A DNA stretch of 11,616 nt from a virus: the UHGV virus genome UHGV-0128598; one strand, 5' to 3'. The notes under the pieces were generated by a model, which worked only from the letters and a program-made list of their open reading frames with translations, searched no databases and had not been told where the DNA came from. Numbering within the stretch: position 1 is the stretch's first letter; each line of letters begins with the position of its first letter. Position numbers and translations under genes: made by a program. This document shows, in pieces, positions 1 through 11,616 of the stretch.

Positions 1-182
1 TGCGGGAAAGCAGACGCAAGAAATAGCGGCAATGTCTGTCCGTCCAGTCGAGCATCGGCGCGATGGAAAAACGTGAAGGGCTGTATCCCGGCGTTTTTCC
101 TCTGTTAACGCTGTTCTGGTGTGGGTTGTGCGATTCTTTATTTTCGTGCATTTTTTGTCTTTATGTCGTATTTTTTCTTTAT

Positions 183-1796: not shown

Positions 1797-2323
1797 TGGT
1801 CTATCCCCCAGCACGTCAGCGCGCTTTCCTGGTCACGACGGGATACCTGCCCGTAGCAGTTATTGGAACGGATCCGGCAATCGCGTCCACCGTCTTTTAT
1901 CCACCACCTGATTGCTTCACATGCCCCCTTCCGATCGCCGGCATTGATTCGCTTATAGAACGTGGATGGGAAACACTTGCCGGGGCCGATATTGTACGGG
2001 CAGAACGACGCAATACCTGCTTTCTGCGGTTCAGTCAGCGGCACTTTGATATTGTGCTCTACCCAGGCTAGCGCTTTATCGCGTTCGATAGCGTTTACCT
2101 GGTCACATTTTGCCTGCGTCAGCTTCATACCCTTCACTACAGGCTTACCATCAACCATCGTGGCACCACGGCAAATCGTCCAAATTCCTCCAGCGTCACG
2201 GTATGCGGAGAGACTGTTGCCCTCTTTCTCATTCAGGAACTGATCGAGAATAACCGATGCTGGCGCACCGGCGAGTACCAGTCCCAGAACAGCAGCGCTA
2301 AGCTTAGTCCTGTTGCTGGTCAT
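1793..2323 (-). CDS. SAR endolysin (T4-type lysozyme fold, phage 21 R-like)
   Basis: 176 aa with ATG start and AGAGG ribosome-binding site. N-terminal Gly/Ala-rich weakly hydrophobic segment [19 protein letters not shown] (signal-anchor-release type) followed by the catalytic triad spacing E-x8-D-x5-T in [16 protein letters not shown]. Start overlaps the holin 3' end by 20 nt; stop overlaps the Rz start. Confidence 0.85.
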
Positions 2324-2540
2324 AGAGTTGAGCCTCTTTGCGACGGTCTTCTTTGATTTTGAAATAGAGATTGGTCAGGTAGGTAACCAGCCCCAGAAAT
2401 ATACTCGCCAGCACACCGATAGCAGCCCACTGGCTTGGGCTGACTTTATCGAGTAATTGCAGTAACCAGAAGACGCCACTGCCCCCGGACGTAATATAGG
2501 AAGCACCTGCCGCCAGACCTGAATGGTTGTTCATCCTCAT
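2304..2540 (-). CDS. Pinholin, phage 21 S-like class II holin with dual-start motif
   Basis: 78 aa with two predicted transmembrane segments and a charged C-terminus ([11 protein letters not shown]). Strong resemblance, from memory, to phage 21 S pinholin ([12 protein letters not shown]...[16 protein letters not shown]). Starts M-R-M (ATG AGG ATG), the Met-basic-Met arrangement used for holin/antiholin dual starts. Directly upstream of a SAR endolysin. Confidence 0.8.
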
Positions 2541-2651: not shown

Positions 2652-3755
2652 TTAGGGTGTATTTAACCCTTTAATTTTTTTATGGCTTAGCAAGCCGAAC
2701 AGGCCCCATATTTTATTAAAGGCGCGTGTTACTTTTTTATCCAGAAGCTTTATGTACAGCGCTGCAATAGTAAACGATATTAACATCGAAATAACTATCG
2801 TCACCTCATAGTTAACAAAAGTCTTCGTAACCGGATATTCAACCCACCACTTCCTTTCAAACATAGCGTGAGACCAAAATCCGATATCGGCATGTATTAA
2901 ATACAGTGGGTATGTCATCGCCCCAAGAAACTTAACAACATTATAAAACTTACCGACTTCAGATACGTTAGATGCACACCAGGTTAACGTAACAAGAGAG
3001 ATACATGCGAGCAGAAGAGATGCATCAGAAACTGAATACCCAAAACTTCCATTTACATATGAATTAAAACCCAACATTCTATTATATATGAGGATCACAC
3101 TAAGAACCATCAAGACGAAATCAAAAGGAGATGGCTTATTTTTCATTATGTCATATATTACTATCCCTGCAATGAAATGACCGGCATGTTCAGTTATAAA
3201 TAGCGCATCAACAAAGCTAGAATGGATTAAAAATTGATTGCTGTATGAAATCACCAACCATGCAAAGCAAATCTCCCTTCTGTAACCACTCCAAATGTTA
3301 AATAACATCATAATGAAAACCAATATATAAAATGTCACCTCTTTCTGAATTGTCCAATAGATATCGCTAAAAAAATGATATCCGAACACTTGGGGGAAAA
3401 ACGTAAAGCTATAGAATAAAGAAACAATCCTTTCCTTAAAATCAACCATTGGTATAAAGCACTGAAACACTAAAACTATAAATCCAAATATTATAAAGGT
3501 GGGTACTATCCTATTAATCCTTGACTTAATAAATTCAACAGGTGTTCTTCCAACTGATGAAAGTGATATTACAAATCCACTTATAATGAAAAATAAATCA
3601 ACACCAAAGTCCCCAAAATAGAAGGCATTAACTGTTAACTCTTTCGGTAGGAAGCCTGAGATAGGCCCAGCGAACAAGTAGTGGTACAACATCACCATCA
3701 TAAATGCCATAAAGCGAAGACCGTCGAGCGCTTCAATCCTTACTGTGGTTTTCAT
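2652..3755 (-). CDS. Integral-membrane acyltransferase, Acyl_transf_3 (OafA/Oac) family; probable O-antigen O-acetyltransferase
   Basis: The track starts at TTG 3758; ATG at 3755 is the likely start (AGAGGA upstream), about 367 aa. Highly hydrophobic with many predicted transmembrane segments and the family motifs: R-x10-H (LDGLRFMAFMMVMLYH), FFxISG (VDLFFIISGFVIS) and RI.P (RINRIVPTF). Markedly AT-rich compared with its neighbours. Confidence 0.85.
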   Translation of the reverse strand: MKTTVRIEALDGLRFMAFMMVMLYHYLFAGPISGFLPKELTVNAFYFGDFGVDLFFIISGFVISLSSVGRTPVEFIKSRINRIVPTFIIFGFIVLVFQCFIPMVDFKERIVSLFYSFTFFPQVFGYHFFSDIYWTIQKEVTFYILVFIMMLFNIWSGYRREICFAWLVISYSNQFLIHSSFVDALFITEHAGHFIAGIVIYDIMKNKPSPFDFVLMVLSVILIYNRMLGFNSYVNGSFGYSVSDASLLLACISLVTLTWCASNVSEVGKFYNVVKFLGAMTYPLYLIHADIGFWSHAMFERKWWVEYPVTKTFVNYEVTIVISMLISFTIAALYIKLLDKKVTRAFNKIWGLFGLLSHKKIKGLNTP

Positions 3756-3760
3756 CAAAT

Positions 3761-3803
3761 CCTCTGGAGTATGCTTTTTACTAAGGAAATCATACCCCAG
3801 AGG
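3761..3803 (-). promoter_or_regulatory. 13-bp inverted repeat (17-nt loop) between tailspike and acyltransferase, enclosing the acyltransferase ribosome-binding site
   Basis: Plus-strand cctctggagtatg (3761-3773) and cataccccagagg (3791-3803) are reverse complements with one mismatch. On the minus-strand RNA that mismatch is a G-U wobble, so all 13 bp pair; on the plus-strand RNA it would be a C-A mismatch. The 3' arm contains the AGAGG element 5 nt before the start. Confidence 0.4.
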
Positions 3804-3819
3804 CTTTACTAATCAAAGT

Positions 3820-6321
3820 TTATCTTGTCAATCGCGCGACGATACCCGCCATGACAAAAACGATTATCTGGTCGTAGTTTAATCCGTATGTGTCGGCCTC
3901 TACATCATGCTCAATCATTTTATACTTTCTGTAATCAAGCCCGTGTCTAGCCATTACCTTCATGACATGCTGTACGGTATACCCAATGTTAACCCCCGCC
4001 TGCTCGCCAAAGTCTCGGCAATCCTTGAGCCACCGGAAAGTACCTGCGCCTAATGCAAGCTCCTGGGATGCTGCAATCTCGGCATCAGTAAATGGTTCAA
4101 TCTCAGTTTTCTGGCGTGCATCAGAGGTAGTAACCACGCCACCTGCTGAATATACACTAGCCCATCTCCTTGAAGAGTTTCCAAGTGTGTAAGTATTGTC
4201 AATATGGGGACCACATGCCCCATTAACATCAAGAGGAAATATTGGATTATCAGTGTTAACCCCAACATTACCACCGCGTGGGTTAATAACTACCTGGTAG
4301 TTATTACCTGATGAATCACTACCCTGAATAAAACCGCCATTAGAACCAGAGTTGCTTAAACATCCAAACTGTAACTCTCTACCACCATCATTATATGAAG
4401 ATCTAAATATTGCTGATGTTTTCAACGTTGAATCTGACAGCGGAATATTTGTTTTATTATCTACAGAAAATAATGCCCTTGGTGTTCCTCCCGTATTCAT
4501 TACCCCAACAAGCCCGCCTGGTGTTATCTCCATAACTTTATGTGGCTTATAGGCCCCATCATCACCATTGTAGAACCGTATGGGGTAATAGTATCCGTTG
4601 CCAGCTATACCGGCTCTAATCTCGTATTCACCAGTCGCTTTTGCAGATATACTGAGATTTTCTTCATCAGCCCCCGTAGTCTTCTGCACGCGGATCGTAC
4701 TTATCTGCGCCCCAATATCGTCACGAATTTTATATGTTGCGCCTGTAGCATTTATAGACGTGTCCTGTAAATTACAGGTGTTGCCGTTATTTGAAATACT
4801 GACAACAGTGCGTAGCGTACCGTTCAGCCAGAATTTATAGGCTCCACTACCGTAACCGAAGAAAAAAAACGGGTCCCCTGACGTTCTGGTGCAAACACCG
4901 TTAATCACGTCACAAATGCCACCACCAGTGGTGTACACATAATGGAATTTTGAGTGCGTACCCACTGCCGCAGTAAGATCCCCGCCGCCTATTTCTGTTA
5001 CGGAAATCTGCCCTGTTGAGGTTAATGCAGTAATTACCAGCGCCCGTTCAAATGCGTATATAGCATCGCCTACTGACCACTTATCTAAGTCGAATAAAGA
5101 GCCACCCTCTCTGACCAGAATATTTTGTGATTGGTGGACTAGTTGACCTTGTGCAGCAGAGCCGTATACAACCACTTCTGAAGGATTGTAATTTTTACTA
5201 GTCTGAATACGCATCCAATTTGCATGACCATCAGATGATAAAAACATACCGTCACCTGAATCCATTAAAGCCCCACCACCGACCTTGAATCCCCCTGAGT
5301 TAGTAGTGGTACCTGCCGAAACAACGCCAGCCCCAAATTTGGTCTCATCTCGTTTACGATACTGGACATTAAGGAATGCCGAGAACGATACTGCTGGTGA
5401 TAAGATTGCCTCGGAGTCCACAACCAGTGTTGGGAGTTTCGCCCACACTAAAGCTATTGGTGTATTGCAAACATAATTCCCCTGCGGAACGTGCAAAGTG
5501 GTACACCCGGAAGGTAGGTTGGATATCATAGAAGCCCAAGCCGCGCTCTCGTCCGAACCATCCCCCCTGACCCCGAAATCTTTTACGCTCAGTGTGTCGG
5601 CGTTTTTATCATGCTGTGTACGCCCCACAGATCCAGAATATGGCTGTTTTACCCCGATAAGAGCATCGCCCTTGCCGCTATCGGTGCTCGCGAGATCTAC
5701 CAAAACATCAGCAGCGCTACCACTCTCTGGACGAACAAATATCGGAGCACCCTCAGCATTGTAAGCCTGTAATCTGTTTGCACGCTGCTCAGCTGGTGCA
5801 AGCGGTGCCACGTAGTTTTCAGGCACGCGCAATGCCCTGTTAAGATTGGTCTGCCCGACCTCCTGCACGTATTTTTTGGTTGCTGCGTCCTGGTCATTAA
5901 CCGGATCCGCAAGGCCGGATATGCGATACCCTTCTGCGTTAAACGGTCCTCCAAGCAACGGGCGACGTAACGCCAGTCCGAGATAAATAAAAGAACGCTG
6001 GATAGCCATCCAGAGGCGGTCAAAATCTTTATTGACGGTATCTGCCAGCAGATCGCCATTGTCCTGGTAATCAGTCAGGCGATAGGTAGGAACAACACGT
6101 TCCAGCATAACAACCGTGCCGTTAGCAGGTGGGGTTAAAAACGTAAGATCACCACCGCTAACGTTACCCACTCCCGACACAGTAAATCCAGTAGTAACAG
6201 GCGTACCATTAAGACTCACCTGAATATCGCTGGCGCTGATGATGTAGAACTCAAAGGGAAAAACGGTCGTCAGACCGTTGGCGTTATAAATAATATAGGG
6301 GGTCTGATTCGGTACCGACAT
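3820..6321 (-). CDS. Tailspike/tail fibre: T7 gp17-like N-terminal anchor, pectate-lyase-like beta-helix depolymerase, C-terminal peptidase S74 intramolecular chaperone
   Basis: 833 aa, ATG start. The N-terminal 150 aa or so resemble, as recalled, the T7 tail-fibre N-terminal domain (VFPFEFY, ERVVPTYRLTDY, ISGLADPVNDQDAATKKYV). The mid region carries the pectate-lyase-3 start signature SVKDFGVRGDGSDESAAWASMISNL. The C-terminus has the autoproteolytic chaperone motif ...SSRRWASVYSAGGVVTTSDARQKTEIEPF. Confidence 0.9.
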   Translation of the reverse strand: MSVPNQTPYIIYNANGLTTVFPFEFYIISASDIQVSLNGTPVTTGFTVSGVGNVSGGDLTFLTPPANGTVVMLERVVPTYRLTDYQDNGDLLADTVNKDFDRLWMAIQRSFIYLGLALRRPLLGGPFNAEGYRISGLADPVNDQDAATKKYVQEVGQTNLNRALRVPENYVAPLAPAEQRANRLQAYNAEGAPIFVRPESGSAADVLVDLASTDSGKGDALIGVKQPYSGSVGRTQHDKNADTLSVKDFGVRGDGSDESAAWASMISNLPSGCTTLHVPQGNYVCNTPIALVWAKLPTLVVDSEAILSPAVSFSAFLNVQYRKRDETKFGAGVVSAGTTTNSGGFKVGGGALMDSGDGMFLSSDGHANWMRIQTSKNYNPSEVVVYGSAAQGQLVHQSQNILVREGGSLFDLDKWSVGDAIYAFERALVITALTSTGQISVTEIGGGDLTAAVGTHSKFHYVYTTGGGICDVINGVCTRTSGDPFFFFGYGSGAYKFWLNGTLRTVVSISNNGNTCNLQDTSINATGATYKIRDDIGAQISTIRVQKTTGADEENLSISAKATGEYEIRAGIAGNGYYYPIRFYNGDDGAYKPHKVMEITPGGLVGVMNTGGTPRALFSVDNKTNIPLSDSTLKTSAIFRSSYNDGGRELQFGCLSNSGSNGGFIQGSDSSGNNYQVVINPRGGNVGVNTDNPIFPLDVNGACGPHIDNTYTLGNSSRRWASVYSAGGVVTTSDARQKTEIEPFTDAEIAASQELALGAGTFRWLKDCRDFGEQAGVNIGYTVQHVMKVMARHGLDYRKYKMIEHDVEADTYGLNYDQIIVFVMAGIVARLTR

Positions 6322-6342: not shown

Positions 6343-7953
6343 TTAATAATCGACTTCGACCTCATGGTCTCCGTCACTTAACTGCCAATGTTCCCGCGAT
6401 TGTCCGGTCGGAATCCCGACCACTTTGCCGATACGAACCGGCGTTGCACTAATAGCACCCGCACCAGAATCAATGAAATCGTCCGGCTGGTTGGTCAGTG
6501 CCGGGTTAAAGTCCCGCATCTGGTCGTACATCGGGCCATCAAGCACGTCAGTGTGCGCCCACAGGAAACGGGAAGACAAAGGAGCTTCGAACGCATCAAG
6601 GATACGCTTCTGCTTGTTTGTCACGCTGAATTCTTCCCGCACGCCGCACCCGGTACCTTTTAACGCCTGCCGCAGCAGTTTTCCCGCAAAGCCGCCGGGG
6701 CCGTTTACCTCGACACAAACAACGGGGATCTGGTATCGGATAACCAGCTCTTTAATCTGGGCGACCTGCCCGCCAGTAATCTTGTCGTTATCGTCAAACT
6801 CTGCCAGTTCACCAGTCAGCTCCTTGCAAACATGCCAGTACAGATGTCCGCGCGCGTCAGTCAGTATCAGGGATAACGCTGAGGCGTCCGCTTTCACTTT
6901 ACCGGTTGCCACGTCCCACCACGCCACAGCACCAACAATTTGCGTGCTGCCGAGCCACATCGAGGCGGTACGGTTGGCGTAGCGAATTTCAGGATGGATG
7001 TTGTACTCACGGATGCGATCAGGATCGAGACGAACGTCGCCAACGGGTTTACTGTGCAGCTGGTACTGGCTGTCCCACTCGTTAACGGTGCGACATTCTT
7101 TACGGCGCAACTCCAGCTCGTCATGATCGAATCGCTCAGGCCAGGCACATCCGGCGTAGAAATCAATAACCGTCTCTGGCGCCGCAGCAAACTCCACGCC
7201 GTCGGCGGTCAGCTTGTAGTCAACATCCTCGACCAGCAGTCGCGCCGCTTTATGGATGCCCGCGAAAACGTACTCCGGCCGGAACGGAATAACGTAGCGC
7301 AGCTGCGTGGCATCCTTCGCCTCGATGCGCTTTTCTTTCTCAAACAGTTTAATGGTCAGACAGTCAGCACCTGCCGATTCCATTTCATCGTAGAGGCTGT
7401 CATGTGTGTGCGGTGTACCGATAAAGAGCTTTCGCCCGCCGGGGATCAGGATGTGAGTTTGCTCGCTCAGGCGGTATCGCAGTTTCTCACGCGCTTCCGG
7501 CGTCTGGATGTTGCCGGGGACTTCCACGTCGTCGTTCTGGCACTCATTTGCACGCGCGCCGGTAACGTTCGACAGGATACCTTTTGCGAACATGCTCGCG
7601 TTACGCATATCCAGCGAACCGTTAACCCACCACTGCTCGACTGTGCCGAGTCCATCCGGCAACATGCCTTTTGTCAGGGGGTGATTGCGTAAAACGTTCT
7701 GCGTATCGCGGCTGGTTTTGCGCGCTGTGGAATCTGATTCAGACTGGTGCAGGACCCGGTACTGGCGGTCGCAGTAATATCGCCATGCGTTATAAACGCC
7801 CAGTATGGTAGATTTACCGAAACCACGAAAACAGCGAAGCACCGCAAGATTTCCGCGATGCTCCAGCCAGTGACAGGCACGATAGTGGCAGTCCGGAACG
7901 TCCCAGTTCATCCGCTCCGCCCACATTAAAAAGAAGGCGAGGAACGAAATCAT
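6343..7953 (-). CDS. Terminase large subunit, T7 gp19-like (DNA maturase B)
   Basis: 536 aa, ATG start. Walker A in RGFGKSTILG, plus DDVEVP...AREKL and FIGTPHTHDSLYDE, which resemble T7 gp19 as recalled (AFRGIGKS, ADDVEIP...AREKL, YLGTPQT..LY). Start overlaps the upstream gene stop as ATGA. Confidence 0.85.
   Translation of the reverse strand: MISFLAFFLMWAERMNWDVPDCHYRACHWLEHRGNLAVLRCFRGFGKSTILGVYNAWRYYCDRQYRVLHQSESDSTARKTSRDTQNVLRNHPLTKGMLPDGLGTVEQWWVNGSLDMRNASMFAKGILSNVTGARANECQNDDVEVPGNIQTPEAREKLRYRLSEQTHILIPGGRKLFIGTPHTHDSLYDEMESAGADCLTIKLFEKEKRIEAKDATQLRYVIPFRPEYVFAGIHKAARLLVEDVDYKLTADGVEFAAAPETVIDFYAGCAWPERFDHDELELRRKECRTVNEWDSQYQLHSKPVGDVRLDPDRIREYNIHPEIRYANRTASMWLGSTQIVGAVAWWDVATGKVKADASALSLILTDARGHLYWHVCKELTGELAEFDDNDKITGGQVAQIKELVIRYQIPVVCVEVNGPGGFAGKLLRQALKGTGCGVREEFSVTNKQKRILDAFEAPLSSRFLWAHTDVLDGPMYDQMRDFNPALTNQPDDFIDSGAGAISATPVRIGKVVGIPTGQSREHWQLSDGDHEVEVDY
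6406..6421. repeat. Copy B of the 16-bp inverted-repeat motif GGTCGGAATCCCGACC (6-bp arms, 4-nt spacer)
   Basis: Exact 16-mer shared with copy C. Lies inside the last 26 codons or so of the terminase gene (encoding ...VGIPTG...), 84 nt upstream of the tailspike ATG. Confidence 0.65.
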
Positions 7954-8291
7954 TTTTTGCCTTTCTGCAGGCGCTCGATAATGGCGAGGGCTTCACGCTC
8001 CGCCTTCGATACCTGCTGCCCCAGCGCAAAGGCTTCATCATCCTGCCCGGGGTTATCTGAAGGCGTACCACCGCGCGTTTGCATGCCAATAAGGGAATGC
8101 ACCTTAATCAGCAGCGTCAGCGAAGCCGCCGCGTTCTTCTTGTCCCAGTATCGATCGCCGCGCTCGTCTTTGGTCAGTTCGCTGGGTTTCTTCCCCGCCC
8201 CCGGCCAGTTGTCCGGATCGGCTTCTTCGAGCACCACGTCAGTGAGTTTATCGCTCAGCGCGGTAAGGCGTGTCTTGTAATCCTGATGCAT
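7950..8291 (-). CDS. Putative terminase small subunit (called by position only)
   Basis: The track extends to a TTG at 8375, but that would read through a terminator-like hairpin and the 3' end of the upstream gene. The first ATG is at 8291 (MHQDYKTRLTALSDK..., 113 aa). Acidic/charged small protein whose stop overlaps the large terminase start (ATGA). No sequence motif recognised. Confidence 0.45.
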   Translation of the reverse strand: MHQDYKTRLTALSDKLTDVVLEEADPDNWPGAGKKPSELTKDERGDRYWDKKNAAASLTLLIKVHSLIGMQTRGGTPSDNPGQDDEAFALGQQVSKAEREALAIIERLQKGKK

Positions 8292-8319
8292 AAAAAAGCC
8301 CTGTAGTGAATACAGGGCT
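8292..8319 (-). terminator. Intrinsic-terminator-like hairpin (9-bp stem, 5-nt loop) followed by T6 on the minus strand
   Basis: Minus strand reads AGCCCTGTA-TTCAC-TACAGGGCT-TTTTT and then the ATG at 8291. Lies between the gp16-like gene stop (8356) and the small terminase start. It leaves no room for a Shine-Dalgarno element, so it may instead be a leader or processing structure. Confidence 0.5.
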
Positions 8320-8337
8320 ATGGTGTATGCTTTTTGA

Positions 8338-8353
8338 GGTCGGAATCCCGACC
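8338..8353. repeat. Copy C of the 16-bp inverted-repeat motif GGTCGGAATCCCGACC
   Basis: Exact 16-mer, starting 2 nt after the stop of the gp16-like gene on the minus strand, 46 nt upstream of the small terminase ATG and just upstream of the terminator-like hairpin. Confidence 0.65.
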
Positions 8354-8355
8354 GA

Positions 8356-9870
8356 TTACCGCATGCCGGGGTCAACCTGATTTATCAGCGGCGCTATCCA
8401 GAAAAGATTATTACCCGGCAGCAGCGTACGCACGTTATGCAGTACCCGATCGCCAGCATCACCGTTGAGCACTCCGGCGGTCACATCGGTGACGGTATCC
8501 AGCAAGCCAAACGTCGGGCCGAGAGCGGAGCCAATAAAGCCACGGCTGGCATAGCGAGACTGTGTGCCGGTACCGAGCAGTGCACCCAGCCCCACCATAC
8601 CGCCGGAGGCTTTTTCTGCCATGTTGTTATATTCCATCAGCGGGCCGAGAATACCGGACCGGTCGATACCTTCAATGGCCAGTTTCTGAGGCGACCAGTC
8701 AACCTCTTTACCATTTGCGGATTGTTTAAGTGCGTACGTCAGTGCGCCGAGGCTAATCTGGAAAGCGGTACCGTAATAAAACTGTCCGGTTCCCTCCTGC
8801 AGGCCGCCCAGCGTTGCGCGGTTGTAGGACGCGGTAGCGAACGATTTAAACTGGAAGATAGTTTTACCCAGTGGCGTGCTGGCCCACAATGGCGTATCGC
8901 CGATCCCCGGTGTGATAACTGTATTGTTAACGTCTTTGAGCACGGCCGACTGAAAAACGCCAGCCACATGCTGATCGTCCCATTTTTCAAAATTGCCGAT
9001 ATGCCAGCCATTGATTACCTCACCGTGTTTTTCGAATTCGCTGCGAATACGCGCGGCCATATTGTCGTTAATGCCGAGCTTGGCAAGGCGGCGGCCCGCA
9101 AACGCGCCGGACAGAATGCCGTCGGAGGTGATCATGCCGTTTACCGATTTGTTCATATCGTCGAAGTGGCCCATCAGCGTGAGCTTGCCGAACGCATCGG
9201 TGACGCGCTCCATTCCCGCCTCTACCGCTGTAGTGCGGGAGGAGCTGTCTACCAGGTCACCCATCGTACGCGCACGGGTATGCAGGATGGTTTCCAGCCC
9301 GACGGCCATTTTTAACTGTTCGGCCCGGCTGGCCTTGAATGCCGGCGACCGGGTTATCAGCGCAGAGTAACCGCGCATGGTATTGCCAAACCCGTTAACC
9401 ATCACACCGCGGGCGAGATCAGGAATAGCGGAAACGGTCATACCGCCCAGCTTGGTGACAAAGTTGGCGCTACGCAGAAACGCACCGGCGCGAACGAAAA
9501 ATGATGATGGGTCATCCGGCATACCGTAGGTACCGACGAGGCGATCGCGAAGCGCCAGAATATCGCGCAGATCGGCTTCGCGCGCCTTCGCCAGCTTTTC
9601 CTGCTCTGCCGGGCGTAACCGCATCAGCGCGTCGTATTCGTCCTGGATGGCAGCGAGCTGCGAATCCAGCGACTTGTTGCCAAAGGTACGGGTTAATTCA
9701 ATTTCCGCTGAGGCTTCGCGGATATGACGCTGCAGGACGTAGTTTGCATCGCTCTCCAGATAATCTTTCATCAGGCGATCGGGAACGCTCAACGTACGCG
9801 ATTTGGTGCTGCCCGGCGATTTCAGCATCTTCGCGGGACATGGTTTTCTCACCGCGTGACCACCAGTCAA
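8356..9870 (-). CDS. Internal virion (ejection) protein, T7 gp16-like, C-terminal portion; apparently separated from the N-terminal portion by a frameshift
   Basis: 504-aa ORF. Gly/Ala-rich hydrophobic stretches and a FQFKSF motif resembling the C-terminal part of T7 gp16 as recalled. The first 30 codons or so look non-protein-like and overlap the upstream ORF, so the true N-terminal boundary is probably the frame junction near 9795-9802. Confidence 0.6.
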   Translation of the reverse strand: MTGGHAVRKPCPAKMLKSPGSTKSRTLSVPDRLMKDYLESDANYVLQRHIREASAEIELTRTFGNKSLDSQLAAIQDEYDALMRLRPAEQEKLAKAREADLRDILALRDRLVGTYGMPDDPSSFFVRAGAFLRSANFVTKLGGMTVSAIPDLARGVMVNGFGNTMRGYSALITRSPAFKASRAEQLKMAVGLETILHTRARTMGDLVDSSSRTTAVEAGMERVTDAFGKLTLMGHFDDMNKSVNGMITSDGILSGAFAGRRLAKLGINDNMAARIRSEFEKHGEVINGWHIGNFEKWDDQHVAGVFQSAVLKDVNNTVITPGIGDTPLWASTPLGKTIFQFKSFATASYNRATLGGLQEGTGQFYYGTAFQISLGALTYALKQSANGKEVDWSPQKLAIEGIDRSGILGPLMEYNNMAEKASGGMVGLGALLGTGTQSRYASRGFIGSALGPTFGLLDTVTDVTAGVLNGDAGDRVLHNVRTLLPGNNLFWIAPLINQVDPGMR

Positions 9871-11182
9871 CCAGCATATTGCGGAATTTATCTCGCTCGC
9901 TAACGATTTTACCCACCTTGTACACGCGCGGAAAATAGCTGGTCTGTCCCATCGCTTTCAGTTCGGCATCCGGCGGGAGTAAGCCCAGTTCCTGCTGGGC
10001 TGTCTTCACGCGGTTAATGACCGTACGCATTGCCTGCGCAGCTTCCTGCACTTTTGCATTAACGTGCACGTCGCCGTTACGCAGCGCCTCGCCAACCTGT
10101 TCACGGAAGGCCGTATAACCCAGATCGCCGCCTTCGGCTTTATACTGGGTGTATGCCTGCTTATTCGCAGTAACGACGGCCGCCTCTTCGCGGTGCCAGC
10201 CACGTACGCGCGTCTCGGCTGCTACCGGTGTTTCGATACCGCGCAGGTTGCCTTCCAGCGTGAAGTTATTCTCCGCCAACTCCAGCGCTGTCCGGCGCGC
10301 TTCTTTTGATGGGGATTCCATCAGGCGGGTGATCGGCGTCAGATAGCTACCGGCCTTTTTAGCCAGCTTGCCGAGCGGGCCGCCAGACACCGGTGTGAGG
10401 TCTTCCAGCGTTGCTTCGCGAATACGCATGGCGCCGACGCTGCCACCGTTCGGTAAAGTATCCGCCAGGGCGTCAGCTGCGTTGTTAATCGTTGGCGCGG
10501 CATTCATGTTATCGAGCGCCTCCGCCACTTCCCGTGTAGCCGCGTTTCTTACCGATGGGGTGATCATCGCGCCAGCAGTAGCAAATACACCGCTGAGAAG
10601 CGCGCCGGCTGTAATGTGCGCGGCGCTCTCCCTTGCTGTTCTGGTGTACTGCTCGTTATTGAGCGCAACCTCGCTAAGTGCGGTACCGGCGGCGCCAATA
10701 GCAATCTGAGAACCAATACGAGCAGCCAGGCTTCCCTGCGCACCGGGAATAAACATCGATGCGACCGTGACAGGGTCGATAACCCCGGCGGCGATACTGG
10801 CCAGAGTTCCTTCAGCGCCTGCCTCAGACAAAACCCGACGGTCTTCATTTTCATCGTCTATCTGGTTTTTTATCCAGGCGGTTTCCTCTGGCGATCGAGA
10901 ATCCGCAAAGGCGGATCCCCATTGTTCGTACCCCTTTAGTTCGTTTTTATCAGAATAAGGGTTATACCCGTCCGCCGGTTCGAATTGTTTGGCCGAGCGG
11001 AACATTCCAGCCAGCAGGTTATTCTGACGAAATGCAGCGCCCCACACAGACGGCTCATCCTGCTGAGGTGCTGGGTTAGTACCTTCAGGCAAAGGCACAT
11101 CAAATCCGGTAGGTGCAGCCAGGACATTACCCGCCGGAGTGAATCCGTTATTGAGTTCTTCAGGGGTGGCGTATACCGGCAT
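9698..11182 (-). CDS. Internal virion (ejection) protein, T7 gp16-like, N-terminal/central portion
   Basis: 494-aa ORF, ATG start overlapping the upstream stop (TAATG). Motifs resemble T7 gp16 as recalled: TPEEL, SEAGAEGTLASIAAGVIDPVTVASMFIPG (compare AGIIGAGVDPLSYVPMVG) and EKTMSREDAEI (compare AKMSREETRY). The last 30 codons or so are low-complexity and overlap the next ORF in another frame. No N-terminal transglycosylase-like region is evident. Confidence 0.6.
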   Translation of the reverse strand: MPVYATPEELNNGFTPAGNVLAAPTGFDVPLPEGTNPAPQQDEPSVWGAAFRQNNLLAGMFRSAKQFEPADGYNPYSDKNELKGYEQWGSAFADSRSPEETAWIKNQIDDENEDRRVLSEAGAEGTLASIAAGVIDPVTVASMFIPGAQGSLAARIGSQIAIGAAGTALSEVALNNEQYTRTARESAAHITAGALLSGVFATAGAMITPSVRNAATREVAEALDNMNAAPTINNAADALADTLPNGGSVGAMRIREATLEDLTPVSGGPLGKLAKKAGSYLTPITRLMESPSKEARRTALELAENNFTLEGNLRGIETPVAAETRVRGWHREEAAVVTANKQAYTQYKAEGGDLGYTAFREQVGEALRNGDVHVNAKVQEAAQAMRTVINRVKTAQQELGLLPPDAELKAMGQTSYFPRVYKVGKIVSERDKFRNMLVDWWSRGEKTMSREDAEIAGQHQIAYVERSRSPDERLSGERCKLRPAASYPRSLSGN

Positions 11183-11577
11183 TATTCAGTGCTCCACGAA
11201 AAGTAATTTTTAACCCTGTCCATGCGCTCGTTATGCAGGCGCTTGTACTGCTCATCGAGCGCACGGTGCTTATCTTTGAACCCACGAATATCCTGCCCGC
11301 GTTGCAGCTCATTGCGATCATGTTCTTCGCGCTCTTCCTGCATTTTTTTGTATGGCGCCCACTCTTCCAGTGACGGTTTCCAGCGCATCGGCCTGCCGTA
11401 CGAATCGTAGAACGGTTGTACCGCCTCGATACCATCCTTATCTTTTGTTCGCACCATGATGGCGTAATCGCCATTGCGGGCCGTCAGTACATCAGGGGTA
11501 ATTTCCAGATCGCCGCCAATACGCGACTCCGGCGTTTTGCTGGTGACAGGCGCTGCGTTACCGGGTGATGCTGCCAA
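11182..11577 (-). CDS. Hypothetical protein, translationally coupled to the gp16-like gene
   Basis: The track ORF starts at a TTG (11577) with no ribosome-binding site. The first ATG is at 11457 (MVRTKDKDG..., about 91 aa). Charged, helix-like C-terminus. Stop overlaps the next start (TAATG). A different frame is open from the window edge to a stop at 11484-11486, so an upstream gene may be cut by the window. Start and reality of this ORF are uncertain. Confidence 0.35.
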   Translation of the reverse strand: MAASPGNAAPVTSKTPESRIGGDLEITPDVLTARNGDYAIMVRTKDKDGIEAVQPFYDSYGRPMRWKPSLEEWAPYKKMQEEREEHDRNELQRGQDIRGFKDKHRALDEQYKRLHNERMDRVKNYFSWSTE

Positions 11578-11616
11578 CTTACTGATTTAGTGTATGATGG
11601 TGTTTTTGAGGTGCTC

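What the first reader, a model, noticed from the sequence alone, without database searches (positions are those of the whole stretch)
3820..6321. Mosaic tailspike with three distinct parts and uneven base composition
Three parts can be read in the translation: an N-terminal domain resembling the T7 tail-fibre anchor, a pectate-lyase-type beta-helix signature (SVKDFGVRGDGSDESAAW...) indicating a polysaccharide depolymerase, and a C-terminal S74-type self-cleaving chaperone (TSDARQK). Sampled composition is about 48-50% G+C in the N-terminal coding part and about 33-37% in the central and C-terminal parts. This suggests the receptor-binding cassette was exchanged horizontally onto a conserved anchor. 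The substrate (O-antigen or capsule) is unknown and would define host range.
Basis: partly seen in the sequence, partly recalled or inferred. Interest (0 to 1): 0.6.

Follow-up and report, generated by a model that had tools for sequence, protein, structure and literature searches.

The report
Mosaic prophage tail fibre, self-cleaving end

Summary
The 833-aa ORF at 3820-6321 (minus strand) is real and intact. It is the only receptor-binding protein of a temperate T7-like podoviral prophage inserted at dusA.

- **Confirmed modules:** a T7 tail-fibre N-terminal anchor (Pfam, aa 8-153) and a C-terminal S74 self-cleaving chaperone (aa 733-833). The S74 part keeps all four mechanistic residues at the spacing seen in T5 pb1: D708, R719, S733, K738.
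- **Mosaicism is proven by comparison, not by composition.** Sister prophages keep 96-97% DNA identity up to codon 240-250, then carry unrelated cassettes. The same cassette sits on P22-type and other anchors elsewhere.
- **G+C numbers were overstated.** Values are 51% for the N part, 45% for the centre and 48% for the C-terminus. Values of 33-37% occur only in local 150-nt windows; the neighbouring acyltransferase gene averages 35.5%.
- **The beta-helix depolymerase reading is not supported.** Only a roughly 50-aa cap motif and a short stub look pectate-lyase-like. The confidently modelled core (aa 349-609) forms beta-barrels with no strong match among solved structures.
- **Receptor unknown.** Carrier strains have different O-antigen gene clusters, or none at the usual locus.

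An ordinary kind of object with an uncharacterised middle module.

The parts
5857..6321 (-). aa 1-155: N-terminal T7 gp17-type tail-attachment (anchor) domain
   Evidence: Pfam PF03906 aa 8-153, 43.5 bits vs cut-off 25.2. 95-100% identical in P0021/P0022/P0026, which carry other cassettes. T7-like tail tubular proteins are present in the same prophage.
5590..5856 (-). aa 156-244: linker/neck with the conserved joint (ESGSAADVL aa 199-207, GKGDALIGVK aa 216-225, RTQHDKN aa 234-240)
   Evidence: aa 212-284 aligns to Sf6 tailspike residues 129-203 (E 2.4e-10 to 3.2e-10). The left breakpoints of cassette exchange fall here: aa 192 against L009, aa 240 against L007, aa 248-250 against L002/L006.
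5335..5589 (-). aa 245-329: pectate-lyase-3-like cap motif (SVKDFGVRGDG...) and a short beta-helix stub
4486..5334 (-). aa 330-612: conserved core of the receptor-binding cassette, an uncharacterised family with tandem beta-barrel-like repeats
4126..4485 (-). aa 613-732: predicted trimeric stalk preceding the cleavage site; lowest G+C of the gene (39.2%); aa 620-640 is an insertion specific to close relatives
   Evidence: Low pLDDT in monomer models. aa 692-732 aligns to the pre-cleavage segments of T5 pb1 and Kp7 depolymerase. Alignment occupancy 0.01 at aa 620-640. G+C.
3820..4125 (-). aa 733-833 plus stop: Peptidase_S74 intramolecular chaperone; predicted scissile bond T732|S733, released fragment 11.5 kDa
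   Evidence: Pfam PF13884, 30 bits vs cut-off 22. phmmer to 7y5s E 1e-19, 4uw8 E 1.6e-12, 3gw6 E 2e-4. Foldseek to 3gud/3gw6 E 7e-4, probability 1.00. D708/R719/S733/K738 match pb1 D1239/R1250/S1264/K1269 in spacing.
2652..3758 (-). Adjacent Acyl_transf_3 (O-acetyltransferase-like) gene, 35.5% G+C; part of the block replaced between sister prophages
   Evidence: Pfam PF01757 E 1e-23 and PHROG 3333 O-acetyltransferase. G+C. The block from window 5572 to 2616 has no DNA match in L006, which carries a beta-helix cassette plus a GtrC-like gene instead.

Best explanation
The gene encodes the single receptor-binding tail fibre of a temperate podovirus with a T7-like virion module, integrated at the 5' end of dusA in E. 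coli.

**How it most likely works.**
- *Anchor (inferred from family knowledge).* The N-terminal 155 residues dock the trimer onto the T7-like tail tube/adaptor.
- *Neck as recombination joint (shown by comparison).* A conserved neck (aa 156-250), also found in Sf6-, P22- and epsilon15-type tailspikes, acts as the left-hand joint at which receptor-binding cassettes are swapped.
- *Receptor-binding cassette (function inferred).* It spans aa 245-732: a short pectate-lyase-like cap/stub, a conserved core of tandem beta-barrels, and a trimeric stalk. It most likely binds a surface glycan. The barrel region (aa 400-560), which varies most between close relatives, is probably the specificity surface.
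- *Binding rather than cutting (inferred).* I consider a lectin-like binding role more likely (about 0.6) than a depolymerase role (about 0.35).
- *Self-cleaving chaperone (residues shown, cleavage inferred).* The C-terminal S74 domain (aa 733-833) nucleates trimer folding of the stalk. It then cuts itself off at T732|S733 using the Ser733-Lys738 dyad, with Arg719 of a neighbouring chain and Asp708 acting as a folding sensor. This leaves a 77.6-kDa mature subunit and an 11.5-kDa fragment.

The falling G+C is a family-wide signature of a horizontally shuffled host-range/seroconversion island: backbone 56%, anchor 50%, cassette 40-45%, seroconversion gene 31-35%.
For: - **Domain hits above curated cut-offs**.
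- **Prophage context.** Integrase, dusA, lysis genes, terL, internal virion proteins, tail tubular proteins and portal. The closest isolated phages are the inducible podoviruses YeP4-6 (terL 77% aa, anchor 53%).
- **Breakpoints, protein level**.
- **Breakpoints, DNA level**. L006 is 96.4% identical to window 5573; L007 is 96.9% identical to 5603; L009 matches only 5746-3819; L002 matches only 5580-3830.
- **Same cassette on a P22 head-binding domain** inside a P22-like prophage.
- **S74 residues and spacing identical to T5 pb1**, with fold matches to 3gud/3gw6.
- **Graded G+C in four related loci**.
- **Core family breadth.** It is widespread and sits in other phage tail contexts.
- **Sub-domain variation.** aa 401-560 is only 65-72% identical in P0006, while its flanks are mostly 82-97%.
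Against: - No experiment exists; trimerisation, cleavage and receptor are all inferred.
- The structure models are monomers. The full-length model is poor (pLDDT 62.8) and the stalk is unmodelled.
- Conserved D364/E382/E553/E554 could be a catalytic site, so an enzymatic role is not excluded.
- In the window itself the prophage is defective, with an IS1 end at 11565-11616 and a 77-bp frameshifting deletion in an internal virion protein gene. The fibre may therefore no longer be used in this strain.
Confidence: 0.75

Rival explanations
1. One reading: the central part is a canonical right-handed beta-helix polysaccharide depolymerase, a tailspike that cleaves a specific O-antigen or capsule.
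For: - Cap motif SVKDFGVRGDG...AAW, typical of the Pectate_lyase_3 family.
- Neck/cap similarity to the Sf6 endorhamnosidase tailspike.
- Conserved acidic residues in the core.
- O-antigen-modifying genes lie next to the fibre gene in this and related prophages.
Against: - No beta-helix Pfam hit in the protein; relatives match only PF12708 positions 1-50/65.
- The only convincing viral fold match is an uncharacterised S74 protein of phage vB_EcoP-ZQ2.
- Carriers of the cassette have unrelated O-antigen clusters or none at the usual locus.
- The adjacent modification gene is not co-inherited with this cassette.
Confidence: 0.2
2. The uneven composition reflects amino-acid and codon constraints of a glycine/serine/threonine/asparagine-rich fibre, not horizontal acquisition.
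For: The within-gene difference is modest (50.9 vs 44.9%, p=0.01). GC2 is similar to other genes. The anchor itself is already below the backbone.
Against: GC3 also drops, from 48% to 38%. Mosaicism is shown independently by sharp DNA identity breakpoints in four related loci. Unrelated cassettes on the same backbone show the same or a stronger drop.
Confidence: 0.05
3. In the strain that gave this window the gene is a relic. The prophage is defective and the fibre is no longer assembled into particles, whatever its ancestral function.
For: - The window ends in an IS1 terminus (11565-11616, 96% match to an IS1 end in STEC383) where the SLT-domain internal virion gene should continue.
- A 77-bp deletion near 9814-9828 splits the 967-aa internal virion protein into two ORFs.
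- STEC383 also has a frameshifted SLT-domain gene.
Against: The fibre ORF is intact and 100% identical to that of STEC383, and 99.9% identical to that of B379, whose prophage genes are all intact. This reading concerns present use, not what the protein is.
Confidence: 0.5

Closest known systems
Coliphage K1F endosialidase tailspike (gp17; chaperone structure 3GW6)
   Same: Same three-part plan: T7-type N-terminal anchor, exchangeable receptor-binding/catalytic middle, and a C-terminal S74 intramolecular chaperone released by Ser-Lys autoproteolysis (sequence E 2e-4; fold match).
   Different: The middle is a sialidase beta-propeller in K1F. Here it is a cap/stub plus beta-barrel core with no detectable similarity to it.
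Bacteriophage T5 L-shaped tail fibre pb1 (4UW8; PMC4690869)
   Same: S74 chaperone with the same residues at the same spacing: D1239/R1250/T1263-S1264/K1269 against D708/R719/T732-S733/K738. It has a non-beta-helix receptor-binding domain with no known enzymatic activity that binds a sugar.
   Different: pb1 is a siphovirus side fibre with a different anchor and a 'bullet' receptor-binding domain. There is no similarity outside aa 692-806.
Klebsiella phage Kp7 depolymerase (7Y5S)
   Same: Best solved-structure sequence match for the stalk end plus chaperone (aa 695-810, E 1e-19). It shows the T7-like adapter plus cassette logic described for such phages (PMC12737672).
Shigella phage Sf6 tailspike (2VBE/2VBK, 7SG7)
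   Same: The neck and first cap of the receptor-binding domain (aa 212-284 against Sf6 129-203, E about 2.4e-10; Foldseek 127 columns, 34% identity).
   Different: Sf6 continues as a 13-coil beta-helix endorhamnosidase, has a P22-type head-binding domain and has no S74 domain.
P22-like prophage tailspike of E. coli/Enterobacteriaceae (P0014 cluster, 726 aa)
   Same: Same cassette from aa 245 to the end: about 80% aa and 72.9% DNA identity, including the S74 domain.
   Different: P22 Head_binding domain (PF09008) instead of the T7 anchor, with gtrABC downstream instead of the acyltransferase.
Escherichia phage vB_EcoP-ZQ2 1073-aa S74 protein (UniProt A0A8F3HKT3) and relatives FH3, 1-6af/bf
   Same: The only viral predicted structure resembling the central model (Foldseek E 5e-23, 521 columns). 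tblastn shows 24-26% identity over aa 212-742.
   Different: Belongs to a virulent phage with a genome of about 72 kb, has a different N-terminal part, and is itself uncharacterised.
Temperate Yersinia enterocolitica O:9 podoviruses YeP4-YeP6 (PMC6548840)
   Same: Closest isolated phages to the prophage backbone (terL 77% aa; fibre anchor aa 1-211 53%). Inducible, with a short non-contractile tail.
   Different: Their fibre shares only the anchor; the cassette differs.

Membership tests
Phage_T7_tail (PF03906) N-terminal tail-fibre anchor | Profile match above the curated cut-off at the N-terminus | tested here: met
   aa 8-153, profile 7-149/157, 43.5 bits vs 25.2.
Phage_T7_tail (PF03906) N-terminal tail-fibre anchor | Encoded in a genome with T7-type tail tubular, internal virion and terminase genes | tested here: met
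   Tail proteins PHROG 394/376, the portal (PHROG 332, labelled 'head-tail adaptor' there), internal virion protein PHROG 342, and the T7-type terminase RNaseH-like domain.
Phage_T7_tail (PF03906) N-terminal tail-fibre anchor | Physical attachment of a trimer to the tail | not testable with these tools
   Needs virion proteomics or cryo-EM.
Peptidase_S74 / C-terminal intramolecular chaperone | Profile match above the curated cut-off at the C-terminus | tested here: met
   aa 733-795, profile 1-58/58, 30 bits vs 22.
Peptidase_S74 / C-terminal intramolecular chaperone | Catalytic Ser with Lys five residues downstream | tested here: met
   S733 and K738 in SDARQK align to pb1 S1264(A)/K1269.
Peptidase_S74 / C-terminal intramolecular chaperone | Upstream Arg (S-14) and Asp (S-25) that couple cleavage to correct trimer folding | tested here: met
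   R719 and D708 have the same offsets as pb1 R1250 and D1239.
Peptidase_S74 / C-terminal intramolecular chaperone | Chaperone fold | tested here: met
   Foldseek to 3gud (TM 0.62 on target, probability 1.00) and 3gw6. The model has pLDDT 78-90 over aa 741-832.
Peptidase_S74 / C-terminal intramolecular chaperone | Autoproteolytic release of the domain | not testable with these tools
   Predicted products are 77.6 and 11.5 kDa; needs SDS-PAGE of wild type against S733A.
Pectate_lyase_3 / right-handed parallel beta-helix depolymerase | Profile match to the beta-helix family above threshold | tested here: not met
   No hit at E<=0.01. Relatives score 25-26 bits against a cut-off of 27 and cover only profile positions 1-50/65 of 213.
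Pectate_lyase_3 / right-handed parallel beta-helix depolymerase | Extended beta-helix (many coils) in the structure | tested here: not met
Pectate_lyase_3 / right-handed parallel beta-helix depolymerase | N-terminal cap motif (xVKDFGAxGDG...) | tested here: met
   aa 245-262. The profile of relatives aligns this stretch to GH55 and iota-carrageenase.
Pectate_lyase_3 / right-handed parallel beta-helix depolymerase | Polysaccharide-degrading activity | not testable with these tools
   Needs halo or LPS/CPS degradation assays.
O-antigen-specific tailspikes of temperate enterobacterial podoviruses (P22/Sf6/epsilon15 type) | Carriers of one cassette share one O-antigen gene cluster | tested here: not met
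   Six of 5426 complete E. coli genomes carry the cassette. The rml-type cluster of STEC383 is in none of the other five. B379 has a different man-type cluster. E89 has only an IS1 between galF and gnd. Small sample.
O-antigen-specific tailspikes of temperate enterobacterial podoviruses (P22/Sf6/epsilon15 type) | Fibre gene adjacent to O-antigen modification genes | tested here: met
   Acyltransferase_3 here; gtrABC next to P0014; a GtrC-like gene or other acyltransferases in L006/L007/L009. The modification gene differs between carriers of the same cassette.

The most novel reading that the evidence does not exclude
The conserved core (aa 330-612) defines a widespread receptor-binding module of phage tail fibres that has not been structurally or functionally characterised. 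It has at least 212 clusters at the 50% identity level and no Pfam or NCBIfam model. It is built from tandem beta-barrels on a vestigial pectate-lyase cap instead of a beta-helix. Near-identical copies (>=90% protein identity) occur in E. coli strains with unrelated O-antigen clusters, and in Enterobacter and Citrobacter; the related P22-type cluster (about 80% identical) also has a Klebsiella member. It may therefore recognise a receptor that is not serogroup-specific, for example a conserved enterobacterial glycan, or carry a new kind of glycan-processing site around D364/E382/E553/E554.
Probability: 0.25. Interest if true: 0.5.

Novelty: new member of a known kind. Interest (0 to 1): 0.3.

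Why it matters
Modular tail fibres set phage host range. This locus is a clean natural example of cassette exchange at defined joints, the neck/cap motif on the left and the stop codon or S74 domain on the right, between T7-like, P22-like and other temperate phages.

The practical lesson is a caution. The 'VKDFGxxGDG' cap motif alone does not identify a beta-helix depolymerase. The middle module is common in metagenomes yet has no solved structure or known ligand, so a structure and a receptor assignment would fill a gap in host-range prediction. Otherwise the finding is an ordinary prophage tail fibre, already annotated as such in RefSeq (WP_001619042.1).

Tried and rejected
- **Full-length AlphaFold model** with 43 sequences was too poor to use for the middle (pLDDT 62.8). 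It was replaced by a model of aa 240-740 built with 137 sequences.
- **Megablast of the gene against 50,697 phage records** found nothing. tblastn found only anchor matches and weak full-length matches of 24-26%.
- **Profile search of solved structures** hit only the cap region, plus spurious beta-trefoil designs.
- **NCBIfam** gave no family.
BFVD gave one real hit.
- **The search for related loci with the core alignment** failed because no stretch was conserved enough.
- **The third homologue search, with the core profile,** returned only four proteins and no names.
- **O-antigen concordance test.** I hoped to name the receptor from host serogroups. STEC383 is Onovel26:H30 (PMC8705337). The other carriers have different clusters or none at the usual locus, so no receptor can be assigned.
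- **Co-transfer idea rejected.** I considered that the low-G+C acyltransferase and the cassette move as one unit. A different phage (L009) shares the cassette exactly up to the stop codon and has another acyltransferase.
Full report
**What is there.** The window is the right end of a prophage.

- On the minus strand it carries two overlapping ORFs of an internal virion protein gene (9698-11182 and 8356-9870), a small ORF (7950-8375), and a T7-type large terminase (6343-7953).
- These are followed by the 833-aa ORF of the finding (3820-6321), an Acyl_transf_3 gene (2652-3758), a holin, a lysozyme and an Rz-like gene.
- On the plus strand there is a tyrosine integrase (241-1329).
- The gene is 100% identical to 'phage tail fiber protein' WP_001619042.1 in E. 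coli STEC383 and 99.9% identical to that of strain B379. In both it lies in a prophage inserted beside dusA. Only 2 of 5426 complete E. coli genomes have it.
- The prophage has T7-like tail tubular proteins, portal and capsid.
- Its nearest isolated relatives are the inducible temperate podoviruses YeP4-6 of Yersinia enterocolitica O:9 (terL 77% aa identity).

**Checking the observation.** The ORF, its coordinates and both quoted motifs are correct.

- Pfam supports the N-terminal T7 tail-fibre domain (aa 8-153, 43.5 bits) and the C-terminal Peptidase_S74 domain (aa 733-795, 30 bits), both above the curated cut-offs.
- The composition claim is only partly right. The N-terminal third is 50.9% G+C, the centre 44.9% and the C-terminal part 48.1%.
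- Only N versus centre differs (p=0.01; GC3 p=0.012). The C-terminal part does not differ from the N part.
- By segment the lowest value is the stalk, aa 613-732, at 39.2%.
- Values of 33-37% occur only in 150-nt windows at aa 596-680. The region that truly averages 35.5% is the neighbouring acyltransferase gene.

**Mosaicism.** This is shown directly and does not depend on composition.

- *Protein level.* P0021, P0022 and P0026 are 95-100% identical to the query over most of aa 1-240 (77% in the aa 121-160 bin) and below 30% afterwards. P0009 and P0012 have a different anchor (30-37%) and the same cassette from aa 200. P0014, P0019 and P0020 carry a P22 Head_binding domain fused to the same cassette from aa 245.
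- *DNA level, sister prophages.* A Klebsiella quasipneumoniae prophage on the same backbone (L006) is 96.4% identical from the internal virion genes through terL to window 5573 (codon 250). It then has no similarity until 2615. In place of the missing block it carries a true beta-helix cassette plus a GtrC-like gene. A second sister (L007) breaks at 5603 (codon 240) and resumes weakly (65.8%) only in the S74 region.
- *DNA level, other phage types.* An unrelated prophage (L009) matches only 5746-3819, which is codon 192 to the base after the stop. A P22-like prophage (L002/L003) matches only 5580-3830.
- *Where the joints lie.* The left joints fall in the conserved neck and cap (ESGSAADVL ... 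RTQHDKN ... SVKDFG). The right joint is the stop codon, or the conserved S74 domain.
- *Independent histories.* The three parts have separate histories. P0021 shares the anchor at 95-100% over most of its length, the core at 20-25% and the S74 part at 54-65%. P0031 and P0142 have the core without S74.
- *Composition across the family.* The G+C gradient is family-wide: backbone 56-57%, anchor about 50%, cassettes 40-45%, seroconversion genes 31-35%.

**The C-terminal chaperone.**

- The region aa 692-810 aligns to the Kp7 depolymerase 7Y5S (E 1e-19), T5 pb1 4UW8 (E 1.6e-12) and the K1F endosialidase chaperone 3GW6. The model matches 3GUD and 3GW6 by fold.
- The pb1 paper describes cleavage of the Thr1263-Ser1264 bond by Ser1264 activated by Lys1269. 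Arg1250 of a neighbouring chain and Asp1239 make cleavage depend on correct trimer folding (PMC4690869).
- The query has D708, R719, T732-S733 and K738 at exactly those offsets.
- Autoprocessing into 77.6 and 11.5 kDa products is therefore a well-founded inference, but it is untested.

**The middle part is not a classic beta-helix.**

- No pectate-lyase or beta-helix family matches the protein. In relatives PF12708 covers only the first 50-65 of 213 profile positions, at or below threshold.
- The AlphaFold model of aa 240-740 (pLDDT 76.5, pTM 0.66; pLDDT 90-98 over aa 349-609) consists of long hairpin strands.
- Profile self-comparison finds an internal repeat, aa 418-447 against 494-524, at probability 91%.
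- The only convincing viral fold match is an uncharacterised 1073-aa S74 protein of phage vB_EcoP-ZQ2.
- The core (aa 330-612) is a large family: 212 representatives at E<=1e-3. It has conserved D364, W369, E382, R544, E553, E554 and N555. It occurs in other phage contexts, including an N4-like contig.
- The depolymerase inference therefore rests on a cap motif alone. An enzymatic role remains possible but unsupported.

**Receptor.**

- O-antigen-modifying genes flank the fibre gene in every relative examined, which suggests a glycan receptor. The modification gene is not inherited together with this cassette, however.
- Six complete E. coli genomes carry the cassette.
- STEC383 (Onovel26:H30, PMC8705337) has an rml-type cluster that none of the other five share.
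- B379 has an unrelated man-type cluster.
- E89 has only an IS1 between galF and gnd.
- Copies in the same 90%-identity protein cluster, or 92% identical, also occur in Enterobacter and Citrobacter. The P22-type relative (about 80% identical) has a Klebsiella member.
- Pas et al. interpret such serogroup inconsistency as pointing to a non-O-antigen receptor (PMC10408124).
- The sample is small, so I leave the receptor open.

**Verdict.**

- The finding is real and its modular, horizontally exchanged nature is well supported.
- The composition figures were exaggerated and the 'beta-helix depolymerase' label is not supported.
- It is a new member of a well-known kind, a modular phage receptor-binding protein with a T7 anchor and an S74 chaperone. 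Its middle module is common but uncharacterised.

Noticed in passing
window 11565-11616: The last 52 bases do not continue the prophage's SLT-domain internal virion protein gene. They match, at 96% over 48 nt, the end of an IS1-family element just upstream of its transposase in STEC383 (L010 17035-17082). The source strain therefore has an IS1 inserted in that virion gene.
   Followed up: partly
window about 9814-9828 (ORFs 9698-11182 and 8356-9870): There is a 77-bp deletion relative to STEC383, B379, L006 and L007, flanked by a short CGCCG microhomology. It frameshifts the 967-aa internal virion protein gene into two overlapping ORFs. Together with the IS1 insertion this makes the prophage in this window probably defective.
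   Followed up: yes
window 2652-3758: An Acyl_transf_3 (O-acetyltransferase-like) gene at 35.5% G+C is the true low-G+C island of the window. In sister prophages this slot holds a GtrC-like glucosyltransferase or a different acyltransferase on the opposite strand, so it is a variable seroconversion slot next to the fibre gene.
   Followed up: partly
window 3757-3807: A 21-nt inverted repeat (86% complementary, 9-nt loop) lies between the fibre stop codon and the acyltransferase. One arm covers the acyltransferase's ribosome-binding site and start (ATG 3755 / TTG 3758). It may be a terminator or a translational control hairpin.
   Followed up: no
window 1-151 (minus strand) and 241-1329: The 5' end of dusA abuts the prophage integrase, so this is a dusA-targeting integrase. 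The same arrangement is seen in E. coli STEC383 and B379 and in a Klebsiella quasipneumoniae contig (L006).
   Followed up: partly
window 2304-2540 compared with L006/L007: The holin is also swapped between sister prophages. The window has a P21-type class II holin, while the sisters have an unrelated 107-aa gene. Only about 85 nt upstream (2529-2615) and the lysozyme-to-integrase region (82-84% identity) are shared.
   Followed up: no
window 4642-5121 (aa 401-560 of the fibre): Within otherwise more than 90% identical relatives (P0003, P0006) identity drops to 65-72% over the barrel region. aa 601-640 drops to 47-50% in P0012/P0014/P0019. These look like sub-domain patches of exchange or diversifying selection inside the cassette.
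   Followed up: partly
L016 (E. coli E89, NZ_CP121157.1 2891506-2895189): A strain carrying the P22-type version of the cassette has only an IS1 element between gnd and galF. It has no O-antigen gene cluster at the usual locus.
   Followed up: no
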